Assembly (NCBI GenBank): GCA_045531935.1
Contig: JAZSEX010000033.1
Location: 16,294 to 80,293 of the forward strand
Direction: 5' to 3'
Length of the DNA stretch: 64,000 nucleotides
Source: Acutalibacteraceae bacterium
Lineage (GTDB): Bacteria > Bacillota > Clostridia > Oscillospirales > Acutalibacteraceae
The translations under genes were made by a program, and so were the position numbers. The notes under the pieces were generated by a model. That model had not been told where the DNA came from, did not search any database, and saw nothing but the letters and a program-made list of their open reading frames with translations. Shown here one piece after another: positions 4,721 through 19,680 of this stretch. The stretch's first letter is position 1. Each line of letters opens with the position of its first letter.

Positions 4721-7700
4721 TTATGCGTTATAGGAAGCAATCGTGCTGTAATCAGTGATGATATCACCGTCAGCATTCTGATAGATGACGTAAGCTCTTG
4801 CATACACAACTGTACCTGCTGTAGCGGAAACCGCACCTGCATAGTAACCGTTGGCTGCAGTGCTGTTGGAAAGGCCCTTACCTACGCCTGAAGCACCAAG
4901 AACAAATGCGTCTTCGTCTGTACCGACAGAAGCTGTCTTGGTAACGATGATACCTGTCTGGATAAGATCGTAGCCTGCAGGTATCGAACGCTCAGCATAG
5001 AAGTTAACCTTCTTAGATGCACTGTCGTACTTGGCTGTGGAAATTCTTGCTACGGGAACAGGAACAACAGCAGAAGCATCACCGTAAACGGGTGTAAGCT
5101 CTGTATCCTTGATAGCGTGGAATGTATAGGATCTGTTGTAGGAAGCGATATCACCTGTTTCAGCATCGATCCAGTAGAGGAAGCTCTCACCTGCAGCGTT
5201 TGTTGCAGATGCGCTGATGCTTACAAGTGCTCTGTCATTGTCAACAGATTCGTATACGCCTGCGCCTGTTGTTGTCCAGTTACCCTCGGTGAGGGTAACT
5301 GTGTTCTTAACAACAAGTGAGTAAACGGGTCTTACAATAATCATCTTTTCGTCGCTTGCAAGGATTTCTTCCTTTGTCATACTCCACTCCTTGAATACGT
5401 GCTCAGGAAGTGAGGGAGCAGCAGGAACTTTGTAATCTTCGCCTTCAGCAAGCTCGAAGTTTTCAACAAGATTCTCAGCATTGTTTACGTAAACGACAAG
5501 CTTCTTATCACTGTTGAAGCACTCGTTTGTTGTGAACTGAGATGTGAGATCCATGTCTGTAACAGCTGTAAACTTATAAACAGCAGAAGCACTGATTATT
5601 CTGTTAGAGCTGTTATTTGTCCAGTAGTAGAAGTCTGAACCGGCCTCAGTCTGAACAGCCTCAAGAGTAACAACTGAACCGTAAGGAACAATCTTCTTGG
5701 ACATTACGGGAACGTTGCTGTAGCTGCCTTCGTTGTAGCCGAAGCGGATCTTACCGATACCGGCAACGATAAGCTTGACTTCAACACTCTTTGTAGTTGC
5801 AACAAAGCTGAATGCAACGGGAGTGATTTCCCATGCACCGTCAACCTTAGCGGTTGCAGTGTAGTTATGTGTACCCTCTGTGAAGGTGTACTTAACAGTC
5901 CATGTGCTTGTGCCGTCACCGTTGTCTTTAACAGTTGCCTTGTCAGCGGTCCAGATTTCCTCTGTGCCGTTGTCAACGTTGTAAAGCTTGATAGCCTCAA
6001 CACCGGACTTAACAACAATACTGAGCGGTTCACCCTTCTGCTTTGCGAAGACATTGCCGTCAGGGCCTGCCTTAACAATTGAAGAGGGCTCAATAAAGTT
6101 GAGCTTGATTGTTTCGCTGTTGTTGAATACGAACTCGATTACCTCAAGGTCCTCGCCTGTGTTGACACTGACATCTGAGGTATCTGCCTTGTACTTAACA
6201 ACGTTGTTGTAAGTTTCATCAACTGTGAGTAAGATATCGCCGTTTGCGTCTGCATTAACGGGAACAGAACCGACGTTGCCTGCGTTATCTGTTACTGCAA
6301 CAGTGAAGAGCTTGCCTGCGTTAGCGGCACCTGTCTTGATTGTGAAGGTGTTATCCTCTGATACGTAGGTGAAGTCATCAACGTGGAGCATATCGAACAG
6401 GTAGTCGATGTAGAGTGAGCTGCCCTGAGTACCCATGTAATTGAACAGGTCAACCTTTGCTACACCTGAACCGCCGGGCTCTGTAACAGTAACCTTACCT
6501 ACACCGTTTGCTTCAAGCTCAGGCTTAAGCTGATCGTAATGATTTACCTCAACAATTCTGTTACATACGTTACCGAAACGATCTGCAACGTGAATAAACA
6601 TCAATTCACCATTATAAGGAGCACCAACAATACCTACCCAATTATCGCCTGCACCATAGGATATGAATTTGGTTGAATCAGCCTCCTTGCTCTCTTCATT
6701 AAATGTTGCAATAAACTCACTATTTGAATTGAGTTCACTGATGAATTTTTTCTTTGCTGCAGCTTCACCATTTTTAAAGTATTCATTTGCAACAACATAG
6801 TCAAGACCTTCTGTTGCGTTAGGATCAATCTTGTAAATGAAGCTACCGAAGTTGTTCTCACCAAAGGTGGGATCTACGTATGCTGCACCAGTTGCAAGAG
6901 TAGCGGGTGAATCGCTGAATTCCCAGTTTCTGACTGCACCGTTGAATAATCTGTAGAAAGCAAAACCGTTGCTCCACTTATCTTTACCGATATTTGAATA
7001 CTCATGATGAGTAAGAACAGCAGAACCGTTTACGGAACCGTCAGCATTCACGCCGTTGTCATTGCCGTCAGCGGGCATGGAGTTCATGTAGTAAACAAAT
7101 ACTGTAATCTTACCGTCTTCTGTTGTTTTTACAGGTTTGTTGTCGCCGCTTGCATATTTGAAGCTGTCAACACCGTTTGCAGTTGATGAGATTTCACCTG
7201 TTTCAGCATCCTTTTCAACAGCTGAGTCAGTTGCATCAATTGTGTAAGCAGCTGCCTGCTGTGTACCGTCAACATTACTGAACTGCGGGCTGAGGATGAG
7301 ATATGCAGAAGAATCTACATCATATCCGCCTGCTGCGTTCTTAGCTGTCTGAGTAGATACTGAATCTGTACCTGTAAGAGCTTTACTTACAGAGCTGATT
7401 GCCATACCTGTATCTACATCGTGAACGGGAGTGATAACATTAGCAGTTACACCCTTCATAGCCTGAGCAGATACTGACATCTTTTCGGGCTTGGATGTTG
7501 TAACAGTTCTCTGTGAACCGTCAGTGTTGAGAGCAGATGTTGTATCCTTAAGTGAAACAACAATCTGCGGATTGAGCTGATTAGTGTAGACGTAGAGTGT
7601 GTAACCGCCGAGGTTGGGAGTCATGTAGGAAGCAGTTACCATCTTGTCTGCTGAGGGAATTGTGTTTGCAAGCTCCTCTGAATGCTCTTCGTAGAACTTG

Positions 7701-10700
7701 TTGAGGTCAGTCTGAGTGTTATGGATTGTAACAACAGGAGCAAATGTATCAACGTAGAGTACAAGAGCCTTTATAGCCTTCTCAAGTCTGTCCTCTGCCT
7801 CAAGAACCTGAGTTTCATTGATAACTGTAACATCTTTATAGTTCTTTGCATTCTCAAAGGCCTGAACGAACTCGTCCCAGATGTTTTCGTTATTTGCATC
7901 GAGTGCCTCGTGGTCATAGAGTGACTCATCACTCATGATATCATCACCTGATCCGAGAGCTTCAACAAGAGTTTCTGTTGTAGCCTTACGAAGCTCAAGA
8001 TCGTTGATGATTTCTACAAGCTCTGCATAGATGTTATTAATTATCGCCTGCTGTGTCTTGGGAGTATCGTAAAGTGTATCACCGTTTTCAGTGTGATCGA
8101 ATTCAATATCGAAGCCTGTCTTGTTGGTGATATTGAAATTGTTAGCAGCCGCCTGAACAGTTGCGTTGATAATGTCGTTATCACCAAGGAACTCGATAAC
8201 AGCTCTCAGAGAGGTATCGGTGTACTTGGTGAAATCATAGAAGCCGCTTGCGTGGAAAACACCTTCACCTGCACCCTTCATGATCTTGTCGTTTCTGTAA
8301 ATAAACGCATTACCTGTTGTACCGAGTGTAGTGTGAGTTGAAGTGAAGAACTCCTCACCTACTCCGTTGTCATCGATATCGTATGAACCGAGAGAAGCGG
8401 CATTGCTCGGGTTGTTATAAAGGAATGCCTTTACAAGCGAAGTAATCTGGCTGAGATCAGCTTTGCCGAGACCGAGCTTCTCAAGTTCTGCAATAATTCT
8501 TGACTTAACGCTGTTTGTATCACCGTTAACAAGAGCTGCCTTATCGATGGTGTACTTATTGGTAAGTTCATTACCGAATACTGTTTCAAGAATATACTCA
8601 ACAGCCTCTGTACCACCGTCATAGCTTGCAGGAAGCTTTGTTGAGTAGTAGTAAATATTACCGTCGTCATCTGTAATGATTTTGTAATCAACTTCAGGTG
8701 TGCTAAGGTCATCCAGGTCACTGAGGATGCTCATATTGAATACGCGTCCGCCAAGTGAGTTAGCTTCAGTTTTACCTACAGTATCATCAACAATGATAAT
8801 ATCTGTTTTGTTGTCTTCTTTGTATGTAGGAACAAGACCGAGAGCCTCGTAGATAAGAGTAGCAACCTCTCTGTATGCATCTGTAGCATTGAGGAGCTTA
8901 AGTCCGCAAAGTTTCTCATACATTGCAACTGTTGCTGTATCGACTGCTTTCTGGTCAGCCTGGACAGCGCTTATAAAAGCGTCTCGGTTTTCTGCAGTCC
9001 AGCAAACAGCATTATTTGTTGCTTCTCTTTCAATGCCTGCCATAACCTCTGCAGCAACGGGTCCATAACCGTAATTTTTTTTCTGATAAGCAAGGAATTC
9101 AGCTGAAGCTTCCTTCTGGTTCAGAACTGCCTTGTAAGAATCGTCCGTGAACCAGCCGCCGTATGAGCTGCCTGTTACGGATTCAAAATCTTCACCCTGA
9201 GCGAGGTAGTACATTGAGCCGTCCTGGTAAATATCAATACCATAGCCGTTTGTATACCAGTCGCCATCTTTTCTTGCAGGTACTGCGTTCATGTTGTAGC
9301 CGAACTCAGCATCGTTGATGATAACTTCGCCTGCAGGAGAAGCAAGAACATAAATCTCTGAACCTGTATCATGGACAGCTTCACTTGTAAGCCATACAAG
9401 AGCATTTGCATCGTGATTGTTAATCTGGCTGCGAGCATCGCCATAGAGGTATGAGTAACCACCAACCAGAGAAACAATCTCTTTACCGACCAGAACTTCT
9501 CCTATAACTTCACCGTTTTCATCAACGTCTGCAAATACAAGCTGATCAGGATGTGTTGTTTCATCCAGTGTAATACCGATTGAATCGTCGAGCAGGTTGA
9601 TAGTCGGCCAGTTTTCAGTTGTACCGAATGCACCGCGATCTTCCTGTCCGTCACCGTCAATTGCAAGCTTAGCACTTTGACGTATGTCATTAGTAAACAG
9701 GGGAACTTCCTTTGTATAAAGCGGTTGTGTTGCTGAACTTCTGTAATCGACTTTGACTGTGATTTCTGTTGCAAGGAATTTATACATATCCTGTCTCATA
9801 TCAAGACCGAAGCCTGCATACTGTGCGCGTGTACCTGTTACATAGTTGAACAGATCTTCGGTAAGAACGTTAACAGCTTCAAGAGCTGTCTCGTATCTTA
9901 CAGCAACACCTGTTGAGTAATCGAGATAGACATCACCAACCTCATAGTTAGAACCGAGAACTGTGTAAATAGCATTAAGCTTATTCTGGATAGCTATCTG
10001 CTGTGCACTGCGGATATCCTTCTCTGCTGCAGGAATGTTTTTTTCGTCAACAGTTGTTGCGAGATAGTCAGCTGTGTAAGTGCCGATACCGTCGCCTGAG
10101 CCGATACCATTGTAGGTATAGCTACCTGCGATAAAGTTATCAACAAGGTTTCTTACACCGATTGTGAATTCGTTGTCTTCCTCAACATCGAACTTCTTTG
10201 TTTCAAGGTTAGCAAGAAGATCCTGAATTACAACAAGTTCATCGAGCAACATCTGCTGCTTTGTAACGTCAATCTCACCGTCCTGAAGGTATTTTACGCA
10301 GAACTGATTCCAAAGTGTTGTGATTTCAGAAATATCGCCGTAGGGTGATAATTCAATCGTACCGATTGAAGGATCAGTGATAACACGATTGCCGTTTTCG
10401 TCAACATATACTGTGCTGTTTGTATATGTGTTAACAGTAACAAACGTTGTGCTGAGCGAATCAATCTGTGCACCGATAGAATCGATAAGAGTCTGTGTGC
10501 TGTCATCAAGGCCCTTCCATGTAAGGATTTCTCTTGTGTCGTGAACCTCTGTGGTGTGTGCATTGATGATAGCCTGATCCTTAGCAGTAAGATTTCTGTC
10601 AGCCTTTGTGGCTAAGAGATATGCTGTCTGGTAAGGAGTCCATGTATCAGATGTGAAATACTTTGAACCGAGCTCATTGTCGAGTGTGAATGTGCCGTCG

Positions 10701-13700
10701 CCGTTGTCGAGCCATACCTGATAGACAAGCTCCCAAGCGCCGTCGGACTCAGCCTCGAATATCTTGCCGAGTTCTTCGTTGAAGAATGTGTAATCAGCAG
10801 GGCTGTACTTAAGACCTTCATCGTCTGCTTCTTTTGAAAGGTCACCGTAGAAGCCGCCTGCTTCAGTTGTGAGCTTGATCTTGTTGTCGATATCTGTGTT
10901 TTCAAGGATATCGAATACCCACTGGTCAATAACATCCTGACTTGTTGTATCTGTAAGTGCCTCTGCTGCTGCAAGAGCGTCAACAAGCTCTGCAACAGAT
11001 TCGTCTGTGAAGAGGTTGCCGTAGCTGACTTCACCTGCGCCGTTTACGATTTCAAACTTCTTGTATTCACCGTCGTCGCCGTAAAGCTCATCGTTTGCGT
11101 ACTCGATAGCATCGTTGAGGGCATCGAGGAACTGGCCGCCTTCAACAAGAAGGTATCTTTCGTCACGGTCTGCGCCGTCGTAGTCCTTATCACCGGACTC
11201 GGAAGCAAGACCGACTGCTGCCCAGATTTCGTCAGCAAGTGTACCGTCAATAACATTACCTGCGTTGTCGTTGTAACCTGTAACTGTAGTGTTAGTGTCC
11301 CAAAGAGTTACTTTGTTTGCCTTTGTGGCATTGATAACAGCCTTAGCTGCTATGACAGAATCAGCTGTGAACTTGGAGGTCTCAAGAACCTTGTCTCTGC
11401 CGTTCAGCTGAAGCGGGTCGTAAGCAGCCTTTGTGCTTTCGTTAAGCTTTGCTGTAGCATTGTCTTCTGCACGTGTTACCTGTGCAGGTACGAAGGAAGC
11501 AGCATGAAGCTCGTTATAGAGGTTTGTGATAAGTGCGTTGTAATGAACCTGACCCTGCTTAGCTGTAAGACCGAATCCGTCGTACATCGCCTTGTTGCTG
11601 AAGATGTTGTTGATGGACATACCGTTTTCAGCGTAAACAGTTGCGGGGTTGAAGCCGTTAACACCTGTTCCGAAAACAGCGTTGAAATAGCTTGACATTG
11701 TACCGGAATCAGCAATTGTAATAGTGTCACCTGCGTTATCGTTGAGGTGTTTGATGATGCTGTTCCATCCGTCAAGGTAAACGGGAGCTGCATTCTTTTC
11801 AAGGTTATCAATAACAGTCTTATAGTTGTTAACTGCATTTACATACTCGGTATAATTGGGACCGAGGTTTTCGTTAGCAAGATTAATGATATTGTCCTTG
11901 AATGTACGTGCAAGAGCAATCTGAGTCGGGCTGTAAACCGATCTCTTAACTGTCTCGAGCTGACCCTGAGCGTTAACTATAACAACGTCAACTGTCTCGT
12001 TCTCTTTTTCAAGGAGCATAGCATCAAGCTGCTCGTTGATTGAAGCATAGGTACCTGTAAGACCTGCGATTGTGCCGTCAAACTCGTTTATCTTCTTAAA
12101 GCCGAGCTTGTAATAAGCAACAAGGAGGTCATAAGTAGCCTTGTTGATTGAGCCTTCAACGTCTACTGCACCGTCGCCCTGAGCATCAACCTTGAGGCCG
12201 TTTGTAGCAATACCGTTTGCACCTGCATCGCCGTAAGCCTGGTTATAACCGGACTGTGTGCTGTAAGCATTCTGACCAACGAAGAACTTCATAGCTTCCT
12301 GTCTTGCGTTGTAGTATGCTGTCCAGCTTTCGGCTGTATACCAGTTAGCACCTGTCTTATCCATACCGAGAGCCCACTGGTTTTCGGGTCTGTTACCCTC
12401 ACCGTACTGCTCGTATGTGGGAATCCAGGTCTTGTTAAGAAGCATTGTAAGGCCTGAGTAGTCAGCAGCGTTGAGGTTACTTTCTCTTGTGTTGTAGAGA
12501 GCAACGTAATCGTCTATAGCTGACTTATAGCCTGCAATGTTTGTAGCCATGGGCTTGCCTGAGTAGCCCTGAATTGCCTGATATGCAGCAGACATGTTGT
12601 TCTTATAATCAGTTGTATAGTACGGATGGTCTGTGAAGTAGAGGGCGTTGCCCTGAACCTGACCGATAGACTGCGGAGCATCGTAGCGTGACTTAAACAC
12701 CTTAACTACCTTGTCGGCGATCTCGGTGTTGTAAACGCCTGCTGCAGTATTGATATCAGCGAATGTAGTCTCGCCGAGGATTGCGTTTGCATCGTTGACT
12801 CTGAAGTCATCCATAGGTCTGAGCTTGAGAGCGGCTCTCTTCTGATAGATGATCTGAGTCATATGGTTGATAGCATCCTGGTTTTCTGCAAGAGTTGCAC
12901 CGTCAATGATGCCGGGCTGTGCAGTCTTTGTGCGCAGATACTCTGCCCATGTGTCGGCAGTGTACCACTGTGCACCGTCCTTAAGCTCGTTGCCGTTTGC
13001 ATCATAAATAACGTATTGCTCGAGGTTTGCGTAGTTTGAGCCACCCTTTTCATACTCTGCGTAGGAGTTCTTCTGAATTTCGAGCTGGCTCATATCGTAT
13101 GATGAGGGAACAAGCTTTTCATAGTAGTAGTCAACAGAAGCGATATCGGGCAGGATTTCAGCCTCAACGTAGAGGGCGAGAATCCACTTGGAGCTGTCGT
13201 TTGTTGACTGATATGTGCTTGTTGCGTTGAGAAGGTTTTCTTCATAGGAATTCTTGAAGCCGTAGCTTGCGCCGCCCCATGAAGCATCGGTCCAGGGATT
13301 GATTGCCTTAATATATTCACCTGCACCGTTTGAAACCCAGATTTCGCCTGCATCGTAAGCGCCGTTGCCGTTTGTATCGCCGTTGTTACCCTTATTATAA
13401 GTTTCTTTAACCTTATTATCGGTAACAACAAAACCTGCGTTTGCGATGTCAGCTGCAAGTGAGTTATAGCTTGTTTTGAATACGGGTGTGTAGAGGTAGC
13501 TTGAACCTCTGTCACTCTTGTTGTAGTTAGCGAAGTAAGTTACTCCGTTTTCTGTGTAGGTACCGTCATCGCTGTAGTACTCGCCTGCCTTACGGAACTC
13601 AAGAGCCTCGTAAGCATCACGTGCTGTGTTGTAGAGACAGTTTGTTGTGTCGGGCACGTCAGGTGAAGTTACGTTCTTGTAAGTGAAGGTCTGCGGATAA

Positions 13701-16700
13701 AGTCTGTCGAGTTTTTTTGTTGTTGCAACATACCCTCCGTCAGAATTCTTCTCATAGACTGTAACACTCGCATTTTCACTGGGCTTTTTGAGAGTTCTGT
13801 CAATGTTGAGTGAATTCTTGAAAGCAGTATAAGTTGTATATGTATATATACCGCTTGCAAGTGCCTTTTCGTTTGCGTAGTTCTTAGCAGTGCCGTCGTT
13901 GTGGTAGCCTGCATACTCGTCACGCATAAAGAGTATCGTATCGTTTGTTGAATTATAATAATTAGTATACTTATCAAATGCAGTATAGTCTGCAGGAGCA
14001 AGACGAAGCTTATCCCAAGCCTCCTGAAGGTCATCAGCATAGTCGTTGATGTACGACTGGAAACGAAGGTCAAGGTGAGCATCGTGAAGGTTGCCTGCAA
14101 CGTCGCTTGCAGCGATAAGCTGAGAGTCTGTTTCAGCGTAAACAGTAGTTCTGTTCTTGATTGTTGCGATAAGGTCTGCTGCGTTATTAAAGAACATATC
14201 CTTAGCGTATCTCTGACCTGCATAGCGCTGGTCATCACCGCTTGCAATAGCAAATGTAAGGCTCTCATAATCGGGTACGCTCTCGTTTGAACCGGCTGTG
14301 AGACCCAGACCGGTTATTTTTGCGAGTGTGCTTACAAGCTTACTGTAGTCAGCATCCTTATAAACAGGGTTCTGCCAGAGGTTAACAAGGAGATTGGAGT
14401 CGAAGTCTGTGCCCCAGAGGTTACCGCAGGCTGTGTAAGCCTTCATAACCTCTGTACGCCACTGGCTCCACCATGCGGGATCCATATCATCTTCCTGGAA
14501 ACCAACGATTGTGCCGTCAGTTGCCTGGCCGGTAACATAGGTAATCATTGCGTGAGCGTTGGATCGGTCAACTCGGTTGAGAACAAAAGCAAAACCTATA
14601 GTAGAGTAGTTATAGTCGCCGCCATCTGATTTCTCAGACTGAAGAATCATTCGAGAATATGATGTATTATAGCTTGATAAAGCATTAACGGTATTGAAAT
14701 ACATTGTGTATGTTGTACCATTTACAATATCCGTGATAATCTTTCCGTCATCATCATTTTCATTTTCCCAATTATTTCCTGTATTTGAAAATGCAAACAT
14801 ATCGGAAGATGAAATAGTGTTTGCTGTATACTTACCACCATATTTGGTTCCGTTATAAGTTGAGGTGTCCCAATATCTTCTAACCCATGGCTGATGGCCA
14901 TCAACAGCGACAAGTGTCATTTTCAACTGAGGTTTAATACTCGCACCCGTAGCCTGAGGGTCAAAATAGATATGAGTTACTATATACTCATCACTGTTGC
15001 GCGAACCGCTATCTTCTGTATAATTGTATAGACCATTATAATAAGCATCTTTGTGTGTTGTGTAACTAAGATAAACAGCATCTCTGTTCTGATAAAAAGT
15101 TACTCTGCCAGCTTTAGCATTATAGCCACCATTACCCCAAGTTGAAGTACCTACTGACCAACCGACTTTTTCACCTGTGCCATAACGTGAGTAACTGTTA
15201 TGTGTACCATTAACAACAGTTGATTCAAATGATGTGCCCTGAACGCCACCATAAAGAGCAACTATACCGGAAACACCTCGTGAACTAAGTATATTATTCT
15301 CAAGTGTTACCGTTGCATCAAGGTGAATTCTTGTATTCTTTTGTACGCTTCCGTTCCAGAATCCACCGTTTCTTCTTGTTCTTGTCGCCCAAACACCTTC
15401 GGTATTCGGAACAGATTTAACATAAGAAGCGGCATACTGTGTATAAACATCCGCTTTACCGTCTTTATTTATATCATCCTTGACACCGTCTTTATTATTG
15501 TCAAGTGAATATGTAAGCTTATAGTAAATACTGTTGCCTGCTGTTGCGGTACCGCCTGTAATTGTGGTAGTCCACTTTGTACCGTTCTGTGAGGTTGAGG
15601 TTGTAACAGCAGAGTTAACGTTGTCGTTTCCTTCATTAACTACCGTACATTTAACGTCTGTTGCATTTGTAGGAACCTCATAAACAAGAGAGCGGTCTGT
15701 GTAAGGTGCTGCAGTCTGGATTTGATTGCCGCTTACATAAATAATAGGCGGAACTGCAACCGATGTAAATTCGCTTGTGTTATTGAGAAGTCCCTCAGTA
15801 CTCGGCTTACCCTTGTTGGAGTTAAGAAGGGCAGCAATAGCCGACTGAAGCTGAGTATGGAATGTGTTAACTTCTGTCTGATTTGTCTTAATCTGTGCGT
15901 AGCAGTTAAGAGCATTCTGATATGCGGTCGTGTAAGCATCCCACATCTGCTGTGTAGCGTTGGGGTAGTCGGACTGCTTACGTGGGTTCATAAGCTCAGA
16001 CATTGTGAGCTCACGGAGTGCACCCTTATCGTAAGTATGGAAATAGAGGTAGAAGGGAGATACCGCATAGAGAAGAATACGATAACCACCCTCGGAGTTA
16101 CCCTTGTTACGAACACCTGTAAACATTGTCATACCTGTGCCGTTAAGGGCAAGAGCTGCTTCCTTACTGTCTACTACAAGAGGATAACCCTTATACTGGC
16201 CTGCCATCTTACCGATAAGGTTGTCGGCTGAAAGGTTGGCATTTACGTGGGTTGTACCCAGTCCGTTAAGGCTCTGCTGACGTGCATATGAATCATAAAG
16301 GAAGATTGTTGCGTTATCCTGTGCACCGTCGGAACCTGTTGAATTGTTTTCTGCGGTTACGGCAGCGTTATAGCTTGCATAGCTGTCACTCGGGTCAACC
16401 GTTGCACCGCTGGGGTTGAAACCGTAATCGCCGTCATAGAAGCCGATACCTGCAACATATTCCTGGAAGCCTCTGTCAAGGTCCTTCTGAATCCAGAAAT
16501 CGATGCTGACACCTGTGTCAAGTCTGCTGTCGGTTGCGGAAACCTTATTAAGCGCAGATACATCGAAGTAGATATCAGTTTTTGGTGATGCAGTGATTGT
16601 TCTCTGCGAAACCTGACCTTCTGTAACTTCTTCACGTGAAGGAGAGAATCGGAACATACTGAATCGGTTATCGCCTGCATGATTGATCCATGACTGGTCA

Positions 16701-18595
16701 ACGTCGGCAATCATAAGCGAGTAGTTGTAGTATGTATTGGAGTTGAATTTATCCTGATTTGTGGTCACATCACGTGCCACGCTGTATGCACCTGTACCGG
16801 AAAGCGTACTGATATAAGCAAGGTCAACATAGTGCTTGGAGTTATTGCTCTGACGCCAGCCACGGAACCAGTCGTTATAACCGGCAGGCTGCTTGATACT
16901 TTCAACAACAGTAGAGTTGCGGATTTCGTATTCAACGCCGCTAAAAGTATACTTTACAGAGTAATTGATGTACTCACCTGCAGTAAGTATGCTTTCGTCC
17001 TTGATGGCGTACTTGTAGAGCACACCTTCGCTTGTGTTCTCGGTACCGAGGTTTGTCAGGGTTGCCTGAGCGTTAGCCGCTGTTCTATGAGCACTGAACG
17101 TAACATCTGTTGCACCCGATGGCAGACAGTAGCTGACCGCAAGGTCCTGGTCATACGGCTGCTTGGTTTTATAGTCGAGCAACTGTGTCTGAACAGAATT
17201 ACCGAACTCCTGCTTTGCACGGACGTCAGCAAGGTTCTCTGCAGCACCGACATAAACAGTCTTGGGAACCGAAAGAGTATTGACAAGCTGAACGCCTTCG
17301 CCGTTGATAGCTTCGATACGCTCTTCGTCAACGTCTGCGCTGCCTGTAACTGTAAGCTGTGTATAGCTCTTGACCTCTGTTGTCATAGAAACTTCGCCGG
17401 TTGCATCGTCAAGTGTGAACTCGAAGTAACGACCCTTGGGGTTCTGGTCGGTATTGTAGTTCTCCTGAGTAAGAGCACCACCCATGATGAAACGGAAGCC
17501 GTTATCGTCAACAACGTCAAAGTAGTTGTCATGGTCGTGACCGAAGGTCATACCAAGACAGTTACCGGGGAGGCGAAGTGCATCGTAAAGAGCAGTTGTT
17601 GCGCCCTTATAGAGCCAAGTCGGACAGGGAGCTTCAGCCATAACACCACTGGGGTTGTTGGCAGGGTCAAGACGGATATACTGCCAATCTGTAACATGAG
17701 TGTATCTGTCAGGTGTAGGTACACCGTTTGTTGAGTCAGCCTGAATAAGAGCACCTGTGGTGTAAATTTCCTGCAGGATAACGTGCTGTGAAGCAAAGGT
17801 GGGGACATAAGCCGAAGGCTGACCTGTAACCTGTGCCTTATAGCTGTACTGGCTGCCTGCAAGGGTATTGTTCATATTGGTGTACCAGTCAACAATCTGC
17901 TGGTAATAAGTATCGTTATCGCCACCGGGACGGAGCCAACCGTCATCCTCGTCACCCTTTGAGTTGAAGAGGGCAAAGTTGAGTGCTACGCCGTTAGGCT
18001 TAGGAGCAGGATTGCCATTACTATCTTTCTGTGCAGCAGCAACTTCATCAGATGACCATGCCTGAACGGTAACGTTACCTGCGCCGGGAGCACCGTCAAG
18101 GTCGATGGTGCTGAAGTTATTATCCCAGTCGATGAAATAACTCTTCTCCATCTGGTATTCCCACTGATGGTTGAGTGAGCCAAAATCGTACTCGTGGTTA
18201 CCGGGCATTGCAATAACCTTACATGTCGATTTCATGTAGGGGGTAAACAAGTTGTATGCTCTGTCAACAGCATCCTCCCACTGGCTCTTTGTAGAAGTGC
18301 TGCCGCCCTGAGTCTGGTCACCTGTAAGCAGGATTACGTCAGGGTTGTAGCGCTGCATGAGCAAGCGGACTGTTTCTCTCGTACGCTCGGTGATAGCGCC
18401 GCCACTGACCGATGTCTGAATATCGGGCAGCTGAAGCACTTTAAGTTTACGTGTTGTGTCGTCGAAATGAATGCCGAAGTCTGTCTTCTGCTGATTCTGC
18501 AGACTTGCACTCGCCTCAAAACCGGTCATAGCAAAGAACGATGCGATCATCGATACTACGAGCAGCAATGAGAGAATTTTCTTCGTTATTCTCAT
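4721..18595 (-). CDS. giant secreted multidomain protein (~4,624 aa): signal peptide, metallophosphoesterase domain, FIVAR-like helical modules, C-terminal Listeria/Bacteroides-type repeats
   Basis: The ORF is uninterrupted. ATG at 18593-18595 has AAGGAGG 11 nt upstream and is followed by MRITKKILSLLLVVSMIASFFAMTGFEASAS. Metallophosphoesterase motifs GDQTQ, GNHEY and GHDHD lie at ~17456-18448. W/Y-T-x-x-S/T-W helical modules recur. FxxW / YxW beta repeats occupy the last 352 aa (4724-5779). Confidence 0.85.
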   Translation of the reverse strand: MRITKKILSLLLVVSMIASFFAMTGFEASASLQNQQKTDFGIHFDDTTRKLKVLQLPDIQTSVSGGAITERTRETVRLLMQRYNPDVILLTGDQTQGGSTSTKSQWEDAVDRAYNLFTPYMKSTCKVIAMPGNHEYDFGSLNHQWEYQMEKSYFIDWDNNFSTIDLDGAPGAGNVTVQAWSSDEVAAAQKDSNGNPAPKPNGVALNFALFNSKGDEDDGWLRPGGDNDTYYQQIVDWYTNMNNTLAGSQYSYKAQVTGQPSAYVPTFASQHVILQEIYTTGALIQADSTNGVPTPDRYTHVTDWQYIRLDPANNPSGVMAEAPCPTWLYKGATTALYDALRLPGNCLGMTFGHDHDNYFDVVDDNGFRFIMGGALTQENYNTDQNPKGRYFEFTLDDATGEVSMTTEVKSYTQLTVTGSADVDEERIEAINGEGVQLVNTLSVPKTVYVGAAENLADVRAKQEFGNSVQTQLLDYKTKQPYDQDLAVSYCLPSGATDVTFSAHRTAANAQATLTNLGTENTSEGVLYKYAIKDESILTAGEYINYSVKYTFSGVEYEIRNSTVVESIKQPAGYNDWFRGWRQSNNSKHYVDLAYISTLSGTGAYSVARDVTTNQDKFNSNTYYNYSLMIADVDQSWINHAGDNRFSMFRFSPSREEVTEGQVSQRTITASPKTDIYFDVSALNKVSATDSRLDTGVSIDFWIQKDLDRGFQEYVAGIGFYDGDYGFNPSGATVDPSDSYASYNAAVTAENNSTGSDGAQDNATIFLYDSYARQQSLNGLGTTHVNANLSADNLIGKMAGQYKGYPLVVDSKEAALALNGTGMTMFTGVRNKGNSEGGYRILLYAVSPFYLYFHTYDKGALRELTMSELMNPRKQSDYPNATQQMWDAYTTAYQNALNCYAQIKTNQTEVNTFHTQLQSAIAALLNSNKGKPSTEGLLNNTSEFTSVAVPPIIYVSGNQIQTAAPYTDRSLVYEVPTNATDVKCTVVNEGNDNVNSAVTTSTSQNGTKWTTTITGGTATAGNSIYYKLTYSLDNNKDGVKDDINKDGKADVYTQYAASYVKSVPNTEGVWATRTRRNGGFWNGSVQKNTRIHLDATVTLENNILSSRGVSGIVALYGGVQGTSFESTVVNGTHNSYSRYGTGEKVGWSVGTSTWGNGGYNAKAGRVTFYQNRDAVYLSYTTHKDAYYNGLYNYTEDSGSRNSDEYIVTHIYFDPQATGASIKPQLKMTLVAVDGHQPWVRRYWDTSTYNGTKYGGKYTANTISSSDMFAFSNTGNNWENENDDDGKIITDIVNGTTYTMYFNTVNALSSYNTSYSRMILQSEKSDGGDYNYSTIGFAFVLNRVDRSNAHAMITYVTGQATDGTIVGFQEDDMDPAWWSQWRTEVMKAYTACGNLWGTDFDSNLLVNLWQNPVYKDADYSKLVSTLAKITGLGLTAGSNESVPDYESLTFAIASGDDQRYAGQRYAKDMFFNNAADLIATIKNRTTVYAETDSQLIAASDVAGNLHDAHLDLRFQSYINDYADDLQEAWDKLRLAPADYTAFDKYTNYYNSTNDTILFMRDEYAGYHNDGTAKNYANEKALASGIYTYTTYTAFKNSLNIDRTLKKPSENASVTVYEKNSDGGYVATTKKLDRLYPQTFTYKNVTSPDVPDTTNCLYNTARDAYEALEFRKAGEYYSDDGTYTENGVTYFANYNKSDRGSSYLYTPVFKTSYNSLAADIANAGFVVTDNKVKETYNKGNNGDTNGNGAYDAGEIWVSNGAGEYIKAINPWTDASWGGASYGFKNSYEENLLNATSTYQSTNDSSKWILALYVEAEILPDIASVDYYYEKLVPSSYDMSQLEIQKNSYAEYEKGGSNYANLEQYVIYDANGNELKDGAQWYTADTWAEYLRTKTAQPGIIDGATLAENQDAINHMTQIIYQKRAALKLRPMDDFRVNDANAILGETTFADINTAAGVYNTEIADKVVKVFKSRYDAPQSIGQVQGNALYFTDHPYYTTDYKNNMSAAYQAIQGYSGKPMATNIAGYKSAIDDYVALYNTRESNLNAADYSGLTMLLNKTWIPTYEQYGEGNRPENQWALGMDKTGANWYTAESWTAYYNARQEAMKFFVGQNAYSTQSGYNQAYGDAGANGIATNGLKVDAQGDGAVDVEGSINKATYDLLVAYYKLGFKKINEFDGTIAGLTGTYASINEQLDAMLLEKENETVDVVIVNAQGQLETVKRSVYSPTQIALARTFKDNIINLANENLGPNYTEYVNAVNNYKTVIDNLEKNAAPVYLDGWNSIIKHLNDNAGDTITIADSGTMSSYFNAVFGTGVNGFNPATVYAENGMSINNIFSNKAMYDGFGLTAKQGQVHYNALITNLYNELHAASFVPAQVTRAEDNATAKLNESTKAAYDPLQLNGRDKVLETSKFTADSVIAAKAVINATKANKVTLWDTNTTVTGYNDNAGNVIDGTLADEIWAAVGLASESGDKDYDGADRDERYLLVEGGQFLDALNDAIEYANDELYGDDGEYKKFEIVNGAGEVSYGNLFTDESVAELVDALAAAEALTDTTSQDVIDQWVFDILENTDIDNKIKLTTEAGGFYGDLSKEADDEGLKYSPADYTFFNEELGKIFEAESDGAWELVYQVWLDNGDGTFTLDNELGSKYFTSDTWTPYQTAYLLATKADRNLTAKDQAIINAHTTEVHDTREILTWKGLDDSTQTLIDSIGAQIDSLSTTFVTVNTYTNSTVYVDENGNRVITDPSIGTIELSPYGDISEITTLWNQFCVKYLQDGEIDVTKQQMLLDELVVIQDLLANLETKKFDVEEDNEFTIGVRNLVDNFIAGSYTYNGIGSGDGIGTYTADYLATTVDEKNIPAAEKDIRSAQQIAIQNKLNAIYTVLGSNYEVGDVYLDYSTGVAVRYETALEAVNVLTEDLFNYVTGTRAQYAGFGLDMRQDMYKFLATEITVKVDYRSSATQPLYTKEVPLFTNDIRQSAKLAIDGDGQEDRGAFGTTENWPTINLLDDSIGITLDETTHPDQLVFADVDENGEVIGEVLVGKEIVSLVGGYSYLYGDARSQINNHDANALVWLTSEAVHDTGSEIYVLASPAGEVIINDAEFGYNMNAVPARKDGDWYTNGYGIDIYQDGSMYYLAQGEDFESVTGSSYGGWFTDDSYKAVLNQKEASAEFLAYQKKNYGYGPVAAEVMAGIEREATNNAVCWTAENRDAFISAVQADQKAVDTATVAMYEKLCGLKLLNATDAYREVATLIYEALGLVPTYKEDNKTDIIIVDDTVGKTEANSLGGRVFNMSILSDLDDLSTPEVDYKIITDDDGNIYYYSTKLPASYDGGTEAVEYILETVFGNELTNKYTIDKAALVNGDTNSVKSRIIAELEKLGLGKADLSQITSLVKAFLYNNPSNAASLGSYDIDDNGVGEEFFTSTHTTLGTTGNAFIYRNDKIMKGAGEGVFHASGFYDFTKYTDTSLRAVIEFLGDNDIINATVQAAANNFNITNKTGFDIEFDHTENGDTLYDTPKTQQAIINNIYAELVEIINDLELRKATTETLVEALGSGDDIMSDESLYDHEALDANNENIWDEFVQAFENAKNYKDVTVINETQVLEAEDRLEKAIKALVLYVDTFAPVVTIHNTQTDLNKFYEEHSEELANTIPSADKMVTASYMTPNLGGYTLYVYTNQLNPQIVVSLKDTTSALNTDGSQRTVTTSKPEKMSVSAQAMKGVTANVITPVHDVDTGMAISSVSKALTGTDSVSTQTAKNAAGGYDVDSSAYLILSPQFSNVDGTQQAAAYTIDATDSAVEKDAETGEISSTANGVDSFKYASGDNKPVKTTEDGKITVFVYYMNSMPADGNDNGVNADGSVNGSAVLTHHEYSNIGKDKWSNGFAFYRLFNGAVRNWEFSDSPATLATGAAYVDPTFGENNFGSFIYKIDPNATEGLDYVVANEYFKNGEAAAKKKFISELNSNSEFIATFNEESKEADSTKFISYGAGDNWVGIVGAPYNGELMFIHVADRFGNVCNRIVEVNHYDQLKPELEANGVGKVTVTEPGGSGVAKVDLFNYMGTQGSSLYIDYLFDMLHVDDFTYVSEDNTFTIKTGAANAGKLFTVAVTDNAGNVGSVPVNADANGDILLTVDETYNNVVKYKADTSDVSVNTGEDLEVIEFVFNNSETIKLNFIEPSSIVKAGPDGNVFAKQKGEPLSIVVKSGVEAIKLYNVDNGTEEIWTADKATVKDNGDGTSTWTVKYTFTEGTHNYTATAKVDGAWEITPVAFSFVATTKSVEVKLIVAGIGKIRFGYNEGSYSNVPVMSKKIVPYGSVVTLEAVQTEAGSDFYYWTNNSSNRIISASAVYKFTAVTDMDLTSQFTTNECFNSDKKLVVYVNNAENLVENFELAEGEDYKVPAAPSLPEHVFKEWSMTKEEILASDEKMIIVRPVYSLVVKNTVTLTEGNWTTTGAGVYESVDNDRALVSISASATNAAGESFLYWIDAETGDIASYNRSYTFHAIKDTELTPVYGDASAVVPVPVARISTAKYDSASKKVNFYAERSIPAGYDLIQTGIIVTKTASVGTDEDAFVLGASGVGKGLSNSTAANGYYAGAVSATAGTVVYARAYVIYQNADGDIITDYSTIASYNA

Positions 18596-19146
18596 AATCG
18601 AAATTTCCTCCTTGAGAATATTTTGGAGTTTGCAATCCGCCAAGGATTGCTTCCCCATTCTGACCGAATGTGGGCTGTCGGACAAAACGTCCGACAAGGG
18701 ATTGCGTAAAATTCCGGTTGAATTTCGCAGGGACGGTAAATGCGGCACAAAACCGCACATTGTGTTTTGCCATTGCAACCATACGGTTGCGAGTAGGGGA
18801 CACGTCCCCCGCTCCGATTGATATTTCGTCCGCTCGGGACGGGAGACCCATCCCCTACGATAACCTCGCCGCTGCCGCCACCGGATACTCAGCCGCAGCA
18901 CCGCCGCCGACCTGACCGTCGGCACACAGCAACCGCGTGCAGCGAAGCGTTTTTTGTTTTGTGCTGACAGCCGCTGTTTTCAGCCCTGACCACTGCCGAA
19001 AAAAAGCTGTTTTTACCCCGAAAAAGACCTCCTGATATTGTCTGCCGCACACCGCCGAAACCGACGAAAAAAGCAGAAAACAACATCTTGTGTATCAAGT
19101 CTTATCAAGACACAAAACATAGTATTATATATAATAATACGGTTTT
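18596..19146 (-). promoter_or_regulatory. long (~545 nt) hairpin-rich 5' leader of the giant gene; class unknown
   Basis: No credible ORF lies here. Stems (plus-strand coordinates): 18632-38/18644-50, 18677-83/18689-95, 18741-45/18753-57, 18775-80/18785-90, 18793-800/18851-58 enclosing 18803-08/18836-41, and 18906-11/18918-23. The segment is visibly more GC-rich than its surroundings. Confidence 0.4.
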
Positions 19147-19175
19147 ACTATACCAAGTTTTTGGCTCTGTGTCAA
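19147..19175 (-). promoter_or_regulatory. sigma-A-type promoter for the giant gene
   Basis: Minus strand: TTGACA (19170-19175), 17 nt spacer, TATAGT (19147-19152). Confidence 0.5.
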
Positions 19176-19651
19176 CATTTTCGGGCATATTTTCACCCTG
19201 GTTTTTCCAACTTTGTGCACCCTGCCCAAACTCTCAGCTTCTCTATGTAACCTATGCACAAATCACGCCCTCAAATTATCGTCTGAAAATGCCTTGAAAA
19301 CAGTCGGAAAACCCACGTAAAACCATTCTTTTTCCGCCTTTTTATTCCGTCGTCAACCGACAAAAATCCCGACTTATTTCCCCTGTTTTTATGCCGAAAA
19401 TCCACCTTTTTTATCCTTCCTTTTTTCTTTTTCTCCACAAAAATCGTCTTGTTACAAATCCCTTTTCAGCTTGTTTTTCACCCCTGAAAACCACCAAAAA
19501 ACTTGCCTTTTTCTCTGTTTTTATTCCTCAAAATACTGTAAAAAATTGCAGAGTTTACAAAAAATTTACAATTTAATTCCGATAAAAAAGATTAACACCG
19601 CGTCAGAATTCTGTTTCGGAATAATGTAATAATGATTATTTAAAATATTTG

Positions 19652-19680
19652 TTTACATTTTTCTTAAAATAATGTATAAT
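19652..19680 (+). promoter_or_regulatory. sigma-A-type promoter for the dCMP deaminase operon
   Basis: TTTACA (19652-19657), 17 nt spacer, TATAAT (19675-19680), about 38 nt upstream of the ATG. Confidence 0.55.

What the first reader, a model, noticed from the sequence alone, without database searches (positions are those of the whole stretch)
18596..19175. About 545-nt hairpin-dense, GC-enriched leader between a consensus promoter and the giant gene
A near-consensus promoter (TTGACA, 17 nt, TATAGT at 19147-19175, minus strand) lies about 545 nt upstream of the giant gene ATG, with no credible ORF between them. The proximal ~350 nt is visibly more GC-rich than its surroundings and folds by eye into at least seven helices. 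These include a nested pair (18793-800/18851-58 enclosing 18803-08/18836-41) and simple hairpins at 18906-23, 18775-90, 18741-57 and 18677-95. Near the RBS, one 3' arm GGAUUGC (18632-38) can pair with either of two upstream GCAAUCC copies (18644-50 or 18699-705). That is the kind of mutually exclusive pairing seen in riboswitches and attenuators. I could not match it to any riboswitch class from memory. It could be a new cis-regulatory RNA or an independent structured ncRNA.
Basis: partly seen in the sequence, partly recalled or inferred. Interest (0 to 1): 0.65.

Follow-up and report, generated by a model that had tools for sequence, protein, structure and literature searches.

The report
Conserved structured leader of giant gene

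Summary
A near-consensus extended -10 promoter (19175-19147, minus strand) lies ~545 nt upstream of the giant gene's ATG (18595). The interval has no conserved ORF, is GC-enriched and folds far better than shuffles (z = -7.0).

I collected 18 distinct orthologous leaders from ruminant-gut Acutalibacteraceae MAGs. All those with enough upstream DNA keep the promoter. The leader is modular: conserved blocks alternate with two variable sites that tolerate 50-250-nt repeat insertions.

A ~70-nt hairpin (18862-18791) is 92% invariant. At synonymous sites of the neighbouring deaminase gene only 21% of columns are invariant. GGUCAG occurs two or three times, twice in every species.

Several helices show compensatory or wobble-only changes. 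The core fold pairs 99.7% on the gene strand and 77% on the opposite strand. Metatranscriptome contigs run from the CDS to within ~30 nt of the predicted start.

No Rfam family matches in any species. The RBS-proximal GCAAUCC/GGAUUGC alternative is not conserved, and that block is missing in several species.

Best reading: a new, genus-restricted cis-acting leader RNA that works independently of its distance to the RBS. It probably binds a factor and secures full-length expression, but the mechanism is unproven. A possible bistable core (18860-18852 pairing with 18733-18725) keeps a riboswitch-like reading open.

The parts
19147..19175 (-). Sigma-A-type promoter: TTGACA, 17 nt, TATAGT, with TG extension. 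Predicted start about G19140.
   Evidence: 11/12 match. Conserved as TTGACA-N17-TA(T/A)AGT in every locus with enough upstream DNA. 62% of its columns are invariant.
19075..19140 (-). Conserved 5' block (CGUAUcA-UAUAUAUA-..CUUGAUACACAAnAUGUUGAUUU). It includes the 5' arm of helix P0 (UGUUUUGUGU, 19119-19110).
   Evidence: 57% invariant columns; alignments. RNA contigs from X28 and X29 reach 19111.
18955..19119 (-). Long-range helix P0 (19119-19110 pairs with 18964-18955). It closes a ~145-nt variable domain.
   Evidence: Two fully compensated columns (CG 8/UA 7; GC 8/AU 5) plus wobble changes. Covariation score 0.464 against 0.307 for shuffles, 0/500 shuffles as high; slid controls 0.13-0.31.
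18977..19003 (-). Hairpin presenting GGUCAG copy 1 (18991-18986). The stem is about 19003-18999 with 18981-18977.
   Evidence: GGTCAG supplies the only 6 invariant columns in the 112-nt variable region. The flanking helix varies on both sides: UA/CG/AU.
18864..18947 (-). Domain A, a three-way junction. P1 is 18947-18939 with 18872-18864. Hairpin A2 is 18923-18906 with loop GGUCAG (18917-18912). Hairpin A3 is 18899-18874.
   Evidence: RNAalifold consensus. A2 pair 5 changes AU to GU to GC (8/3/3). P1 and A3 vary only through G.U-compatible changes. 59% invariant columns.
18791..18862 (-). Hairpin B. About 25 bp with small internal loops and an A/U-rich apical loop that is variable in length. 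Invariant runs of 35 nt (18860-18826) and 29 nt (18817-18789).
   Evidence: 92% invariant columns in 18 leaders. All 25 pairs never vary. One copy in the window and one per locus. Neutral baseline is 21% invariant, with a longest run of 11 nt.
18775..18790 (-). Hairpin C (GCAACC-GUAU-GGUUGC). Variable, sometimes duplicated. It is the first permissive site for repeat insertions.
   Evidence: Compensatory pair CG 5/AU 3/GC 1. Insertions of 110-210 nt follow it in L005, L008, L010, L013, L015 and L034.
18708..18771 (-). Block D. It comprises an A-rich strand (GCAAAACACA, 18770-18761), hairpin Y (18757-18741), invariant GCAUUUACCGUCCCUGCGA (18743-18725) and a small AU hairpin with ACCGGAA (18726-18708).
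   Evidence: 57% invariant columns. Stem Y varies only by wobble. UCCCUGCGA (18733-18725) can pair 9 bp with UCGUAGGGG (18860-18852).
18630..18711 (-). Block E. Hairpins E1 (18695-18677), E2 with GGUCAG copy 3 (18674-18653; motif 18665-18660) and E3 (18650-18632). Poorly conserved and dispensable. It is the second permissive insertion site.
   Evidence: 5% invariant columns. Absent or replaced in L005, L010, L011, L013 and L034.
18587..18620 (-). Translation initiation region. UAUUCUCA (18620-18613) pairs with UGAGAAUA (18594-18587). The SD GGAGG (18611-18607) sits in the loop. ATG is 18595-18593.
   Evidence: Inverted repeat I2. Predicted in the window centroid and in L001, L005 and L013. Local folding is no stronger than shuffles (z about 0).
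4721..18595 (-). Giant gene: 4,624 aa, with a signal peptide, an N-terminal calcineurin-like metallophosphoesterase domain and a FIVAR domain.
   Evidence: Orthologues share 60-83% identity over the first 400 aa.

Best explanation
The interval is the 5' untranslated leader of the giant-gene mRNA. It is transcribed from the conserved strong promoter at 19175-19147 and folds into a modular, sense-strand-specific RNA.

The modules, in 5'-to-3' order:
- a 5' domain closed by long-range helix P0
- a three-way-junction domain A
- an invariant ~70-nt hairpin B
- a conserved block D

Two or three hairpins display the same GGUCAG motif. Variable linkers C and E separate the conserved core from the ribosome-binding site.

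Shown:
- transcription of at least 516 of the 545 nt
- conservation far above the neutral level
- helices with compensatory or wobble-only change
- strand specificity
- tolerance of large insertions between core and RBS
- no match to any Rfam family

Inferred mechanism: the core works at variable distance from the RBS (73-328 nt), no terminator follows it, and the SD sits in a weak, open hairpin. I therefore think the leader does not gate translation initiation directly. I propose it acts on the transcript as a whole. The invariant hairpin and the repeated GGUCAG loops would recruit a trans-acting factor, either RNA polymerase or a Nus-type factor or an RNA-binding protein. That would keep the 14-kb message elongating or stable, in the manner of a processive-antitermination or stabiliser leader.

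My confidence that this is a real, functional, transcribed structured leader is about 0.85. My confidence in this mode of action is about 0.35-0.4.
For: Promoter and leader length. The promoter is kept at the head of the leader in all loci that reach it.

Fold: z = -7.0.

Conservation, from 18 distinct leaders of one clade:
- Invariant columns by block are 5' block 57%, variable 5%, A 59%, B 92%, D 57%, E 5%.
- At third codon positions of the adjacent deaminase gene only 21% of columns are invariant, and the longest invariant run is 11 nt.

Structure:
- P0 and the GGUCAG-1 stem show covariation.
- A2, C, P1 and Y change only in pairing-compatible ways. Cells paired are 99.7%, with 2 broken cells of 728.
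- The same structure is 77.3% paired on the antisense strand, because 22.5% of cells are G.U.

GGUCAG: two copies in 18 of 18 leaders, 68-74 nt apart. Three copies in the window has a shuffle probability of 0.0004.

Distances: D to SD is 73-328 nt, and B to D is 49-249 nt.

No minus-strand terminator-like site lies in the leader itself; the only minus-strand hit between promoter and early CDS (18552-18539) is inside the CDS.

The SD has no conserved long-range partner. The D:SD duplex is -9.3 kcal/mol, which is average for this leader (mean -8.0, sd 2.4).

RNA evidence:
- Metatranscriptome contigs from 8 runs cover the CDS and leader up to 19111 and are continuous across the ATG.
- DNA runs cover 18306-19400 without a break.

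Precedents for long leaders that confer processive antitermination on very long transcription units:
- LoaP leaders (PMC12691694)
- the 456-nt leader of the 32-kb pLS20 conjugation operon (PMC13401043)
Against: There is no direct evidence for any factor or for antitermination.
- No NusG/LoaP paralogue is encoded in the 64-kb window.
- No convincing sense-strand intrinsic terminators lie inside the giant ORF that would need to be overridden.
- Known antitermination RNAs (put, EAR) are much smaller, and none matches.

Covariation statistics for the core (A plus B) are weak. Only one pair changes on both sides, and B never varies, so its fold is unproven.

The sequences come from one shallow clade (deaminase 93-99% identical at the protein level), so related sequences inflate the apparent support.

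The RNA evidence is low-depth (2-8x), unstranded and contig-based. It comes from relatives, not from the window's own strain.
Confidence: 0.4

Rival explanations
1. A ligand-sensing riboswitch-like element whose switch lies in the conserved core, not at the RBS. The 5' base of hairpin B (UCGUAGGGG, 18860-18852) would pair either with its own 3' strand (UCCCCUAC, 18800-18793) or with block D (UCCCUGCGA, 18733-18725). In the second fold GUGU (18803-18800) pairs with ACAC (18765-18762), giving a four-way junction. A metabolite or ion would shift the balance and change elongation, Rho access or decay.
For: - The alternative 9-bp helix is -15.0 kcal/mol. Only 2% of dinucleotide shuffles of the downstream 193 nt reach that value.
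- The alternative fold lies 3-6 kcal/mol above the MFE in five species and is essentially the unconstrained MFE fold in L001.
- The outer limits of invariance coincide with the ends of this helix. UCG and GCGA are invariant, while the next base outward varies.
- Every segment involved is invariant, as expected if each base must satisfy two pairings.
- The only variant in ACAC (A to G in L007 and L008) stays wobble-compatible.
- The gene products (metallophosphoesterase, then an endonuclease/exonuclease/phosphatase protein) are of the kind often placed under nucleotide-type riboswitches. That last point is from general knowledge, not tested here.
Against: - No Rfam riboswitch matches in 17 leaders.
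- There is no recognisable expression platform: no terminator and no conserved anti-SD.
- 100-250-nt insertions sit inside or after the proposed switch in several species.
- Distribution is limited to one genus-level clade, which is unusual for metabolite riboswitches.
- No covariation can test either fold, because all partners are invariant.
- p = 0.02 is modest for a pairing found after inspection.
Confidence: 0.2
2. A processing and stability module only. The long, nearly perfect hairpin B would be a double-strand-specific RNase (RNase III-type) site or a 5' protective structure. It would define a stable mature 5' end, or release a stable leader-derived small RNA with its own function.
For: - B has about 25 bp with small internal loops, the typical size of RNase III substrates.
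- The leader is G-rich and densely folded, which would exclude Rho and single-strand RNases.
- Depth in one RNA run is somewhat higher over 18784-18931 than over the CDS (X23).
Against: - A cleavage or protective hairpin does not need 92% nucleotide invariance, loops included.
- This reading does not explain the conserved 5' block, domain A, block D or the repeated GGUCAG.
- RNA contigs run uninterrupted through B into both flanks (X24 record 12, X28 record 1, X34 record 8).
- Contig depth is a poor measure of abundance.
Confidence: 0.15
3. A DNA-level element, not an RNA. One option is a phase-variable invertible switch between promoter and ORF, as in Clostridioides difficile cwpV (from my own knowledge). 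Another is an array of operator sites for the neighbouring OmpR-type regulator.
For: - The gene is a giant surface or secreted protein with a long promoter-to-ORF distance.
- P0 is also a 10-bp inverted repeat flanking about 145 bp.
- A two-component system lies nearby.
Against: - Orientation is the same in 18 of 18 assemblies. GGTCAG is never seen as CTGACC.
- No strand-switch joints appear in DNA contigs.
- No flanking inverted repeat exceeds 12 nt.
- 22.5% of paired cells in the A+B core fold are G.U, and P0 also carries many U.G cells. These are mismatches at the DNA level and on the other strand.
- The two-component system is absent from several relatives that keep the leader.
- An invariant 70-nt block is far longer than an operator.
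Confidence: 0.04
4. No specific function: a hairpin-rich, GC-rich spacer produced by composition or decayed repeats.
For: - The antisense strand also folds better than shuffles (z = -5.8).
- Repeat elements do land in this leader in some species.
Against: - Blocks B, A, D and the 5' block are 57-92% invariant, against 21% at synonymous sites and 5% in the variable parts of the same leader.
- Changes in the stems are pairing-compatible and strand-specific.
Confidence: 0.02

Closest known systems
Leader elements for processive antitermination of very long transcription units. Examples: EAR RNA of Bacillales eps operons, LoaP-dependent leader hairpins, the pLS20 conjugation-operon leader, and phage HK022 put.
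   Same: - A long untranslated leader directly behind a strong promoter of an exceptionally long transcription unit (13.9 kb plus a downstream gene).
- A conserved structured RNA whose position relative to the first RBS is flexible.
- No local expression platform.
- pLS20 also has a leader of several hundred nt: 456 nt before a 32-kb operon (PMC13401043).
   Different: - No sequence or structure match to EAR or any other Rfam family.
- No NusG/LoaP-type gene in 64 kb.
- No internal intrinsic terminators to bypass.
- The conserved part (~400 nt) is several times larger than put, EAR or the LoaP hairpin.
- Antitermination activity is untested.
Riboswitches and orphan riboswitch candidates in Firmicutes. 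These include the c-di-GMP-I/II and c-di-AMP classes that control large surface proteins, and large 'ornate' RNAs (raiA, ROOL, GOLLD, OLE).
   Same: - A conserved multi-helix RNA in a 5' leader.
- Highly conserved junction and loop nucleotides with some covarying stems.
- Candidate mutually exclusive pairings in the core.
   Different: - None of the 4,227 Rfam models matches. At E <= 10 there are only three noise hits of 19-21 bits against gathering scores of 74-127.
- No terminator or anti-SD platform.
- Very narrow phylogenetic range.
- The main hairpin shows invariance, not covariation.
Phase-variable invertible switches in the leaders of Clostridial surface-protein genes (the cwpV type).
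   Same: A surface or secreted protein gene with several hundred nt between promoter and ORF, and an inverted repeat flanking an internal segment.
   Different: - The orientation is fixed in all 18 assemblies.
- The repeat arms are only 10 bp and contain G.U-type mismatches.
- No recombinase gene was seen next to the locus.

Membership tests
Any Rfam 15 family (riboswitches, T-box, EAR, raiA, ROOL, GOLLD, OLE, HEARO, SRP, 6S and others) | A covariance-model score at or above the family's gathering threshold. | tested here: not met
   Whole window: only RNase P at 54404-54750. Leader at E <= 10: three hits of 18.8-20.5 bits against thresholds of 74-127. Sixteen orthologous loci: no hits.
Transcription-attenuation riboswitch or attenuator | An intrinsic terminator (GC-rich hairpin plus U tract) between the sensor and the ORF, overlapping an alternative antiterminator. 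| tested here: not met
   No minus-strand terminator-like site within the leader; the nearest hit (18552-18539) lies inside the CDS. Hairpin Y is followed by AUUUACC, which has only three U.
Translational (RBS-sequestering) riboswitch | A conserved anti-SD segment, tied to the conserved sensor, that pairs with the SD or start codon. | tested here: not met
   - The D:SD duplex is -9.3 kcal/mol, equal to the leader average.
- The predicted SD partner is the adjacent UUCUC or the first codons.
- Core-to-SD distance varies from 73 to 328 nt.
Riboswitch (any class) | Specific ligand binding by the RNA. | not testable with these tools
   This needs in-line probing, ITC or SHAPE with candidate ligands.
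LoaP/UpxY/RfaH-type specialised NusG antitermination system | A NusG paralogue gene encoded with, or next to, the regulated unit. | tested here: not met
   Pfam scans of 42 ORFs of the window found NusA (49282-50340) but no NusG N-terminal or KOW protein. Genes flanking the giant gene are a deaminase, a 183-aa protein with no Pfam hit, and an EEP-family protein. A paralogue elsewhere in the genome cannot be excluded.
Processive-antitermination RNA (put/EAR-like) | Read-through of downstream terminators that depends on the leader RNA. | not testable with these tools
   Only indirect data are available. There are no strong internal terminators in the ORF. A terminator-like repeat hairpin (AGCUCCUUUCCAAAGGAGCU followed by UUUG) sits inside the L013 leader.
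Structured cis-acting leader RNA (generic) | (a) Transcribed with the gene. (b) Conserved above neutral. (c) Helices kept by compensatory or wobble change on the sense strand. | tested here: met
   (a), plus conserved promoter (34, 52). (b). (c).
Invertible DNA switch (cwpV-like) | Both orientations of a segment flanked by inverted repeats are found in populations. | tested here: not met
   One orientation in 18 of 18 assemblies. No strand-change joints in DNA contigs. The longest flanking inverted repeat is 12 nt. Contigs drop rare variants, so low-frequency inversion is not excluded.

The most novel reading that the evidence does not exclude
The leader is the first example of a new class of large (~400 nt conserved) leader RNA dedicated to a giant gene. 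Its invariant hairpin B and block D would form a bistable core (18860-18852 pairing with either 18800-18793 or 18733-18725). Its repeated GGUCAG loops would dock a factor or RNA polymerase. The RNA would then sense a signal and set whether the polymerase completes the 14-kb message. This would be a signal-responsive processive-antitermination or elongation-control RNA with no protein partner encoded nearby.
Probability: 0.2. Interest if true: 0.8.

Novelty: new variant of a known kind. Interest (0 to 1): 0.6.

Why it matters
How bacteria manage to transcribe and translate single genes of 10-20 kb is largely unstudied. The known solutions for long operons (RfaH, LoaP, UpxY, EAR, pLS20 conAn) were each found in operons, not in giant single genes.

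This locus offers a leader with clear sequence-level constraint (an invariant 70-nt hairpin, a repeated loop motif, a covarying long-range helix) and natural 'experiments' (insertions and deletions in relatives) that already map which parts are dispensable.

If it controls elongation or stability, it would be a new RNA tool for expressing very long messages in Clostridia. If it binds a ligand, it would be a new orphan riboswitch class.

The limits are real. The clade is narrow and uncultured (ruminant-gut Acutalibacteraceae MAGs), and the function is so far inferred only from anatomy.

Tried and rejected
1. Rfam at gathering and at E <= 10, on the window and on 16 orthologous loci. Nothing was found.

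2. A JGI metagenome scan with the 20-mer CTCCCGTCCCGAGCGGACGA. It gave only three chance hits in 60-68% GC contigs whose flanks are unrelated. That collection seems to lack this clade.

3. A viral-contig pattern scan and a plasmid blastn. No match.

4. Coding potential. Mechanical ORFs exist, but 1-2-nt indels break them. Gene callers' 175-aa and 191-aa ORFs over the leader are spurious.

5. An anti-SD role for block D. RNAalifold proposed it, but I rejected it because the duplex energy is average.

6. The local 5' hairpin UUGUGU/ACACAA. I rejected it in favour of P0, because the G/A variation is compensated in the distant arm and not in the invariant GAUACACAA.

7. LoaP or NusG paralogues. 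None in the window.

8. Internal terminators in the ORF as an argument for antitermination. None convincing.

9. More distant relatives, reached through the neighbouring 183-aa protein. They lack both the giant gene and the leader, so they give no deeper covariation.

10. SRP-RNA mimicry, suggested by GGUCAGGUC. The idea came from memory. The context differs (loop versus helix strand) and there is no SRP model hit, so I dropped it.

11. A boxA-like NusB/E site in AUGUUGAUUU. It matches only about 5-6 of 9 positions of the consensus as I recall it, and I did not pursue it.

12. A literature search for a prior description. None was found.
Full report
**What is in the sequence**

On the minus strand, TTGACA (19175-19170), 17 nt and TATAGT (19152-19147) with an upstream TG form an 11/12 match to the sigma-70/sigma-A consensus. 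It is the only such hit on that strand between 18000 and 20500. The expected start is about G19140.

The giant gene's true start is the ATG at 18595-18593, behind AAGGAGG. This RBS and the first 20 coding nucleotides are identical in all orthologues.

The gene encodes 4,624 aa with a signal peptide, an N-terminal calcineurin-like metallophosphoesterase domain and a FIVAR domain. A 553-aa endonuclease/exonuclease/phosphatase-family gene follows it.

GC content is 57-69% at 18750-18999. In the CDS it is 43-52%, and upstream of the promoter it is 21-43%.

The leader RNA folds at -222 kcal/mol against -176 +/- 6.6 for dinucleotide shuffles (z = -7.0). The opposite strand gives z = -5.8.

Mechanical ORFs also exist: the giant frame stays open to 18925, and there are 65-111-aa ORFs. 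Orthologues differ by 1- and 2-nt indels inside them, so they are not coding.

**Relatives**

A search of one genome per GTDB species with the first 400 aa found 12 loci. All are Acutalibacteraceae, 'Ruminococcus sp.' or Clostridia MAGs from cattle, goats and other ruminants. Protein look-ups added more. Together with the window this gives 18 distinct leaders.

Every locus that extends far enough carries the same promoter, TTGACA-N17-TA(T/A)AGT, at the head of the leader. It lies 512-950 nt from the ATG.

The clade is shallow. The divergent neighbour, a cytidine/dCMP deaminase, is 93-99% identical in protein. The giant protein's N-terminus is only 60-83% identical.

More distant relatives keep the deaminase-183-aa operon, with the 183-aa protein at 57-60% identity. 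They have neither the giant gene nor any trace of the leader. The element is therefore tied to this gene in what looks like one genus.

**Conservation**

Third codon positions of the deaminase gene give a local neutral yardstick. Only 34 of 165 are invariant (21%), pairwise identity is 66%, and the longest invariant run in the whole CDS is 11 nt.

Against that yardstick the leader is modular:

| Block | Coordinates | Invariant columns |
|---|---|---|
| Promoter | 19175-19147 | 62% |
| 5' block | 19146-19075 | 57% |
| Variable region | 19074-18963 | 5% |
| Domain A | 18962-18863 | 59% |
| Hairpin B | 18862-18791 | 92% |
| Hairpin C | 18790-18772 | 37% |
| Block D | 18771-18712 | 57% |
| Block E | 18711-18630 | 5% |
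| RBS region | 18629-18593 | 38% |

Hairpin B contains invariant runs of 35 and 29 nt.

The only six invariant columns of the 112-nt variable region spell GGTCAG (18991-18986). The same hexamer forms the loop of hairpin A2 (18917-18912) in all 18 leaders, 68-74 nt downstream. It also forms the loop of hairpin E2 (18665-18660) wherever block E exists. Three copies in the window's leader has a shuffle probability of 0.0004, and the complement CTGACC never occurs.

**Structure**

RNAalifold on three alignments gives a consistent model.

- **P0.** A long-range helix pairs UGUUUUGUGU (19119-19110) with GCACAAAACA (18964-18955). Two columns are fully compensated (C-G 8/U-A 7; G-C 8/A-U 5). A third haplotype in L005 and L010 combines them correctly, and several changes are wobble-only.
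- **GGUCAG-1 stem.** Taken together with P0, the covariation score is 0.464 against 0.307 +/- 0.023 for shuffles (0 of 500 as high). Slid controls give 0.13-0.31.
- **Domain A.** This is a three-way junction. Hairpin A2 shows A-U to G.U to G-C (8/3/3). P1 and A3 change only in G.U-compatible ways.
- **Hairpin C.** It shows C-G, A-U and G-C variants.
- **Hairpin Y.** It varies only by wobble.

Over domains A and B, 99.7% of 728 cells are paired. Formal covariation there is weak: one pair changes on both sides, and 18 of 500 shuffles reach the score. The 25 pairs of hairpin B never vary, so its fold is predicted, not demonstrated.

The same structure read on the opposite strand is only 77.3% paired, because 22.5% of cells are G.U. 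Selection therefore acts on the RNA of the gene strand.

**Transcription**

Only assembled contigs of metatranscriptomes were available, and they come from relatives. In eight runs they cover the early CDS and the leader and are continuous across the ATG. Examples are X24, 18475-18948 plus 61 nt further, and X25, 18306-18784.

In two runs the contigs extend to 19111 (X28, 18823-19111; X29, 18784-18974 plus 19077-19111). None lies upstream of that point. DNA runs cover 18306-19400 continuously.

Contigs of several runs break at the AT-rich palindrome 19112-19135. I therefore read 19111 as an assembly limit and not as an RNA end.

The caveats are 2-8x depth, no strand information and possible DNA carry-over.

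**What it is not**

- No Rfam family matches in the window or in 16 orthologous loci.
- No match was found in viral contigs or plasmids. The JGI metagenome scan returned only chance hits.
- No terminator-like hairpin with a U tract lies in the leader on the gene strand.
GGAUUGC (18638-18632) was proposed to pair with either of two GCAAUCC copies. The upstream copy is GCAACCC in most species, block E is the least conserved part, and it is missing or replaced in L005, L010, L011, L013 and L034.
- An anti-SD role for block D, suggested by RNAalifold, has only average duplex energy: -9.3 against a leader mean of -8.0 +/- 2.4 kcal/mol.
- The SD itself sits in the 18-nt loop of a weak hairpin formed by UAUUCUCA (18620-18613) and codons 1-3 (18594-18587). 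Local folding there is no stronger than in shuffles.

**Natural insertions**

Copies of a dispersed REP/MITE-like repeat occur in the leaders of seven distinct relatives; the insertion alignment places them in L005, L008, L010, L013 and L015 and did not include L032 or L034. The repeat is also present at window 46084-46135. Insertions sit at two sites only: after hairpin C, and between block E and the RBS.

The B-to-D distance thus ranges from 49 to 249 nt, and the D-to-SD distance from 73 to 328 nt. The conserved core therefore works irrespective of its distance to the RBS.

**How it most likely works**

Several steps are shown. The leader is a transcribed, sense-specific structured RNA under strong purifying selection. 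It has modular architecture and a repeated loop motif. Its RBS-proximal part is dispensable, and it has no terminator or anti-SD platform.

The rest is inference. The leader probably acts on the transcript as a whole and does not gate initiation. The invariant hairpin B and the two or three GGUCAG loops look like docking sites for a trans-acting factor. Such a factor could keep RNA polymerase processive or protect the 14-kb message.

This resembles leaders that confer processive antitermination on very long units: EAR, LoaP leaders (PMC12691694) and the 456-nt pLS20 leader (PMC13401043). It is not a member of any of those families. There is no model match, no NusG paralogue in 64 kb, and no internal terminators to bypass.

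UCGUAGGGG (18860-18852), the 5' base of hairpin B, can pair 9 bp with UCCCUGCGA (18733-18725) in block D. This would replace pairing with B's own 3' strand.

- The duplex is -15.0 kcal/mol. Only 2% of shuffles of the downstream sequence reach it.
- The resulting four-way-junction fold is 3-6 kcal/mol above the MFE in five species and is essentially the unconstrained MFE fold in L001.
- In that fold GUGU (18803-18800) pairs with ACAC (18765-18762), and the first insertion site falls in a peripheral branch.
- Invariance stops exactly at the outer ends of this helix.
- A double pairing constraint would explain why hairpin B, unlike every other stem, never varies.

All partners are invariant, so none of this can be tested by covariation.

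**DNA-level readings are unlikely**

An invertible switch or an operator array does not fit the data. All 18 assemblies share one orientation. No inversion joints are seen. The repeat arms are short and contain G.U-type mismatches. The nearby two-component system is absent from several relatives that keep the leader.

**Verdict**

It is wrong in its specific evidence, the RBS-proximal switch. The mechanism is unresolved.

I favour a factor-binding, distance-independent element that controls elongation or stability (about 0.4). A bistable ligand-responsive core comes next (about 0.2), followed by a processing or stability module (about 0.15).

The element is not in Rfam, and the two full-text literature searches I ran found no description of it. 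Its narrow, uncultured host range limits immediate tractability.

Noticed in passing
window 46084-46135; also L005:3515-3920, L008:3560-3900, L013:4430-4540, L015:340-470: A dispersed REP/MITE-like repeat (AATCCTCCGTCACGGC..GCCGTGCC..CCTCCTTTCAAAAGGAGG, often followed by further GC-rich hairpins). It occurs in an intergenic region of the window. Copies are inserted into the giant-gene leader of seven distinct relatives; where the insertions were mapped (L005, L008, L010, L013, L015) they sit at the same two sites.
   Followed up: partly
window 19176-19717: A 540-nt non-coding spacer between the giant-gene promoter and the divergent deaminase gene. It is strongly strand-asymmetric: almost C-free on the giant-gene strand, with plus-strand GC skew of -0.4 to -0.7. 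It is full of A/T tracts and falls to 21% GC near 19600. The sequence is not conserved, but relatives (L013, L027, L030) share the composition. It may be curved upstream DNA.
   Followed up: no
window 18587-18620: UAUUCUCA upstream of the SD is perfectly complementary to UGAGAAUA (the G of the ATG plus codons 2-3). This places the SD in an 18-nt loop. The first 20 nt of the CDS are invariant across species, synonymous sites and the rare codons AGA and AUA included.
   Followed up: partly
window 20853-24090: A HisKA histidine kinase (873 aa) and an OmpR-type response regulator lie beyond the deaminase operon. The pair is present in the window, L013/L033, L032 and L034 (and at least the kinase in L004). 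It is absent from relatives (L002/L025, L030) that keep the giant gene or its leader, so it is not obligatorily linked.
   Followed up: partly
L019-L024: More distant relatives keep the deaminase-183-aa operon, and L024 also keeps the HK-RR-GH88-GT1 synteny. All of them lack the giant gene and the leader. Some (L019-L023) carry a separate 380-393-aa metallophosphoesterase gene nearby, next to a cohesin-domain gene in L023.
   Followed up: partly
L003, L015, L027, L030, L031 (contig ends); L014:888-1415, L030:2-577 (called ORFs): Metagenome contigs frequently end inside the leader or promoter, probably because co-occurring species share its invariant blocks. Automatic gene callers place spurious 175-191-aa ORFs over the stop-poor, GC-rich leader.
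   Followed up: partly
window 26500-27091: A ~590-nt non-coding gap lies between a divergent GT1 glycosyltransferase gene and a 16-kb exopolysaccharide cluster (27092-43050). The cluster includes Polysacc_synt_2, GT2, GT1, EpsG, a pyruvyl transferase and GH98. This may be another long leader, and it has no Rfam hit.
   Followed up: no
window 54404-54750: A bacterial class A RNase P RNA (285 bits). It lies next to a P-type cation ATPase gene and a LytR-CpsA-Psr gene. The ribF-truB-DHH/DHHA1-infB-nusA-rimP block lies at 43.3-51 kb.
   Followed up: yes
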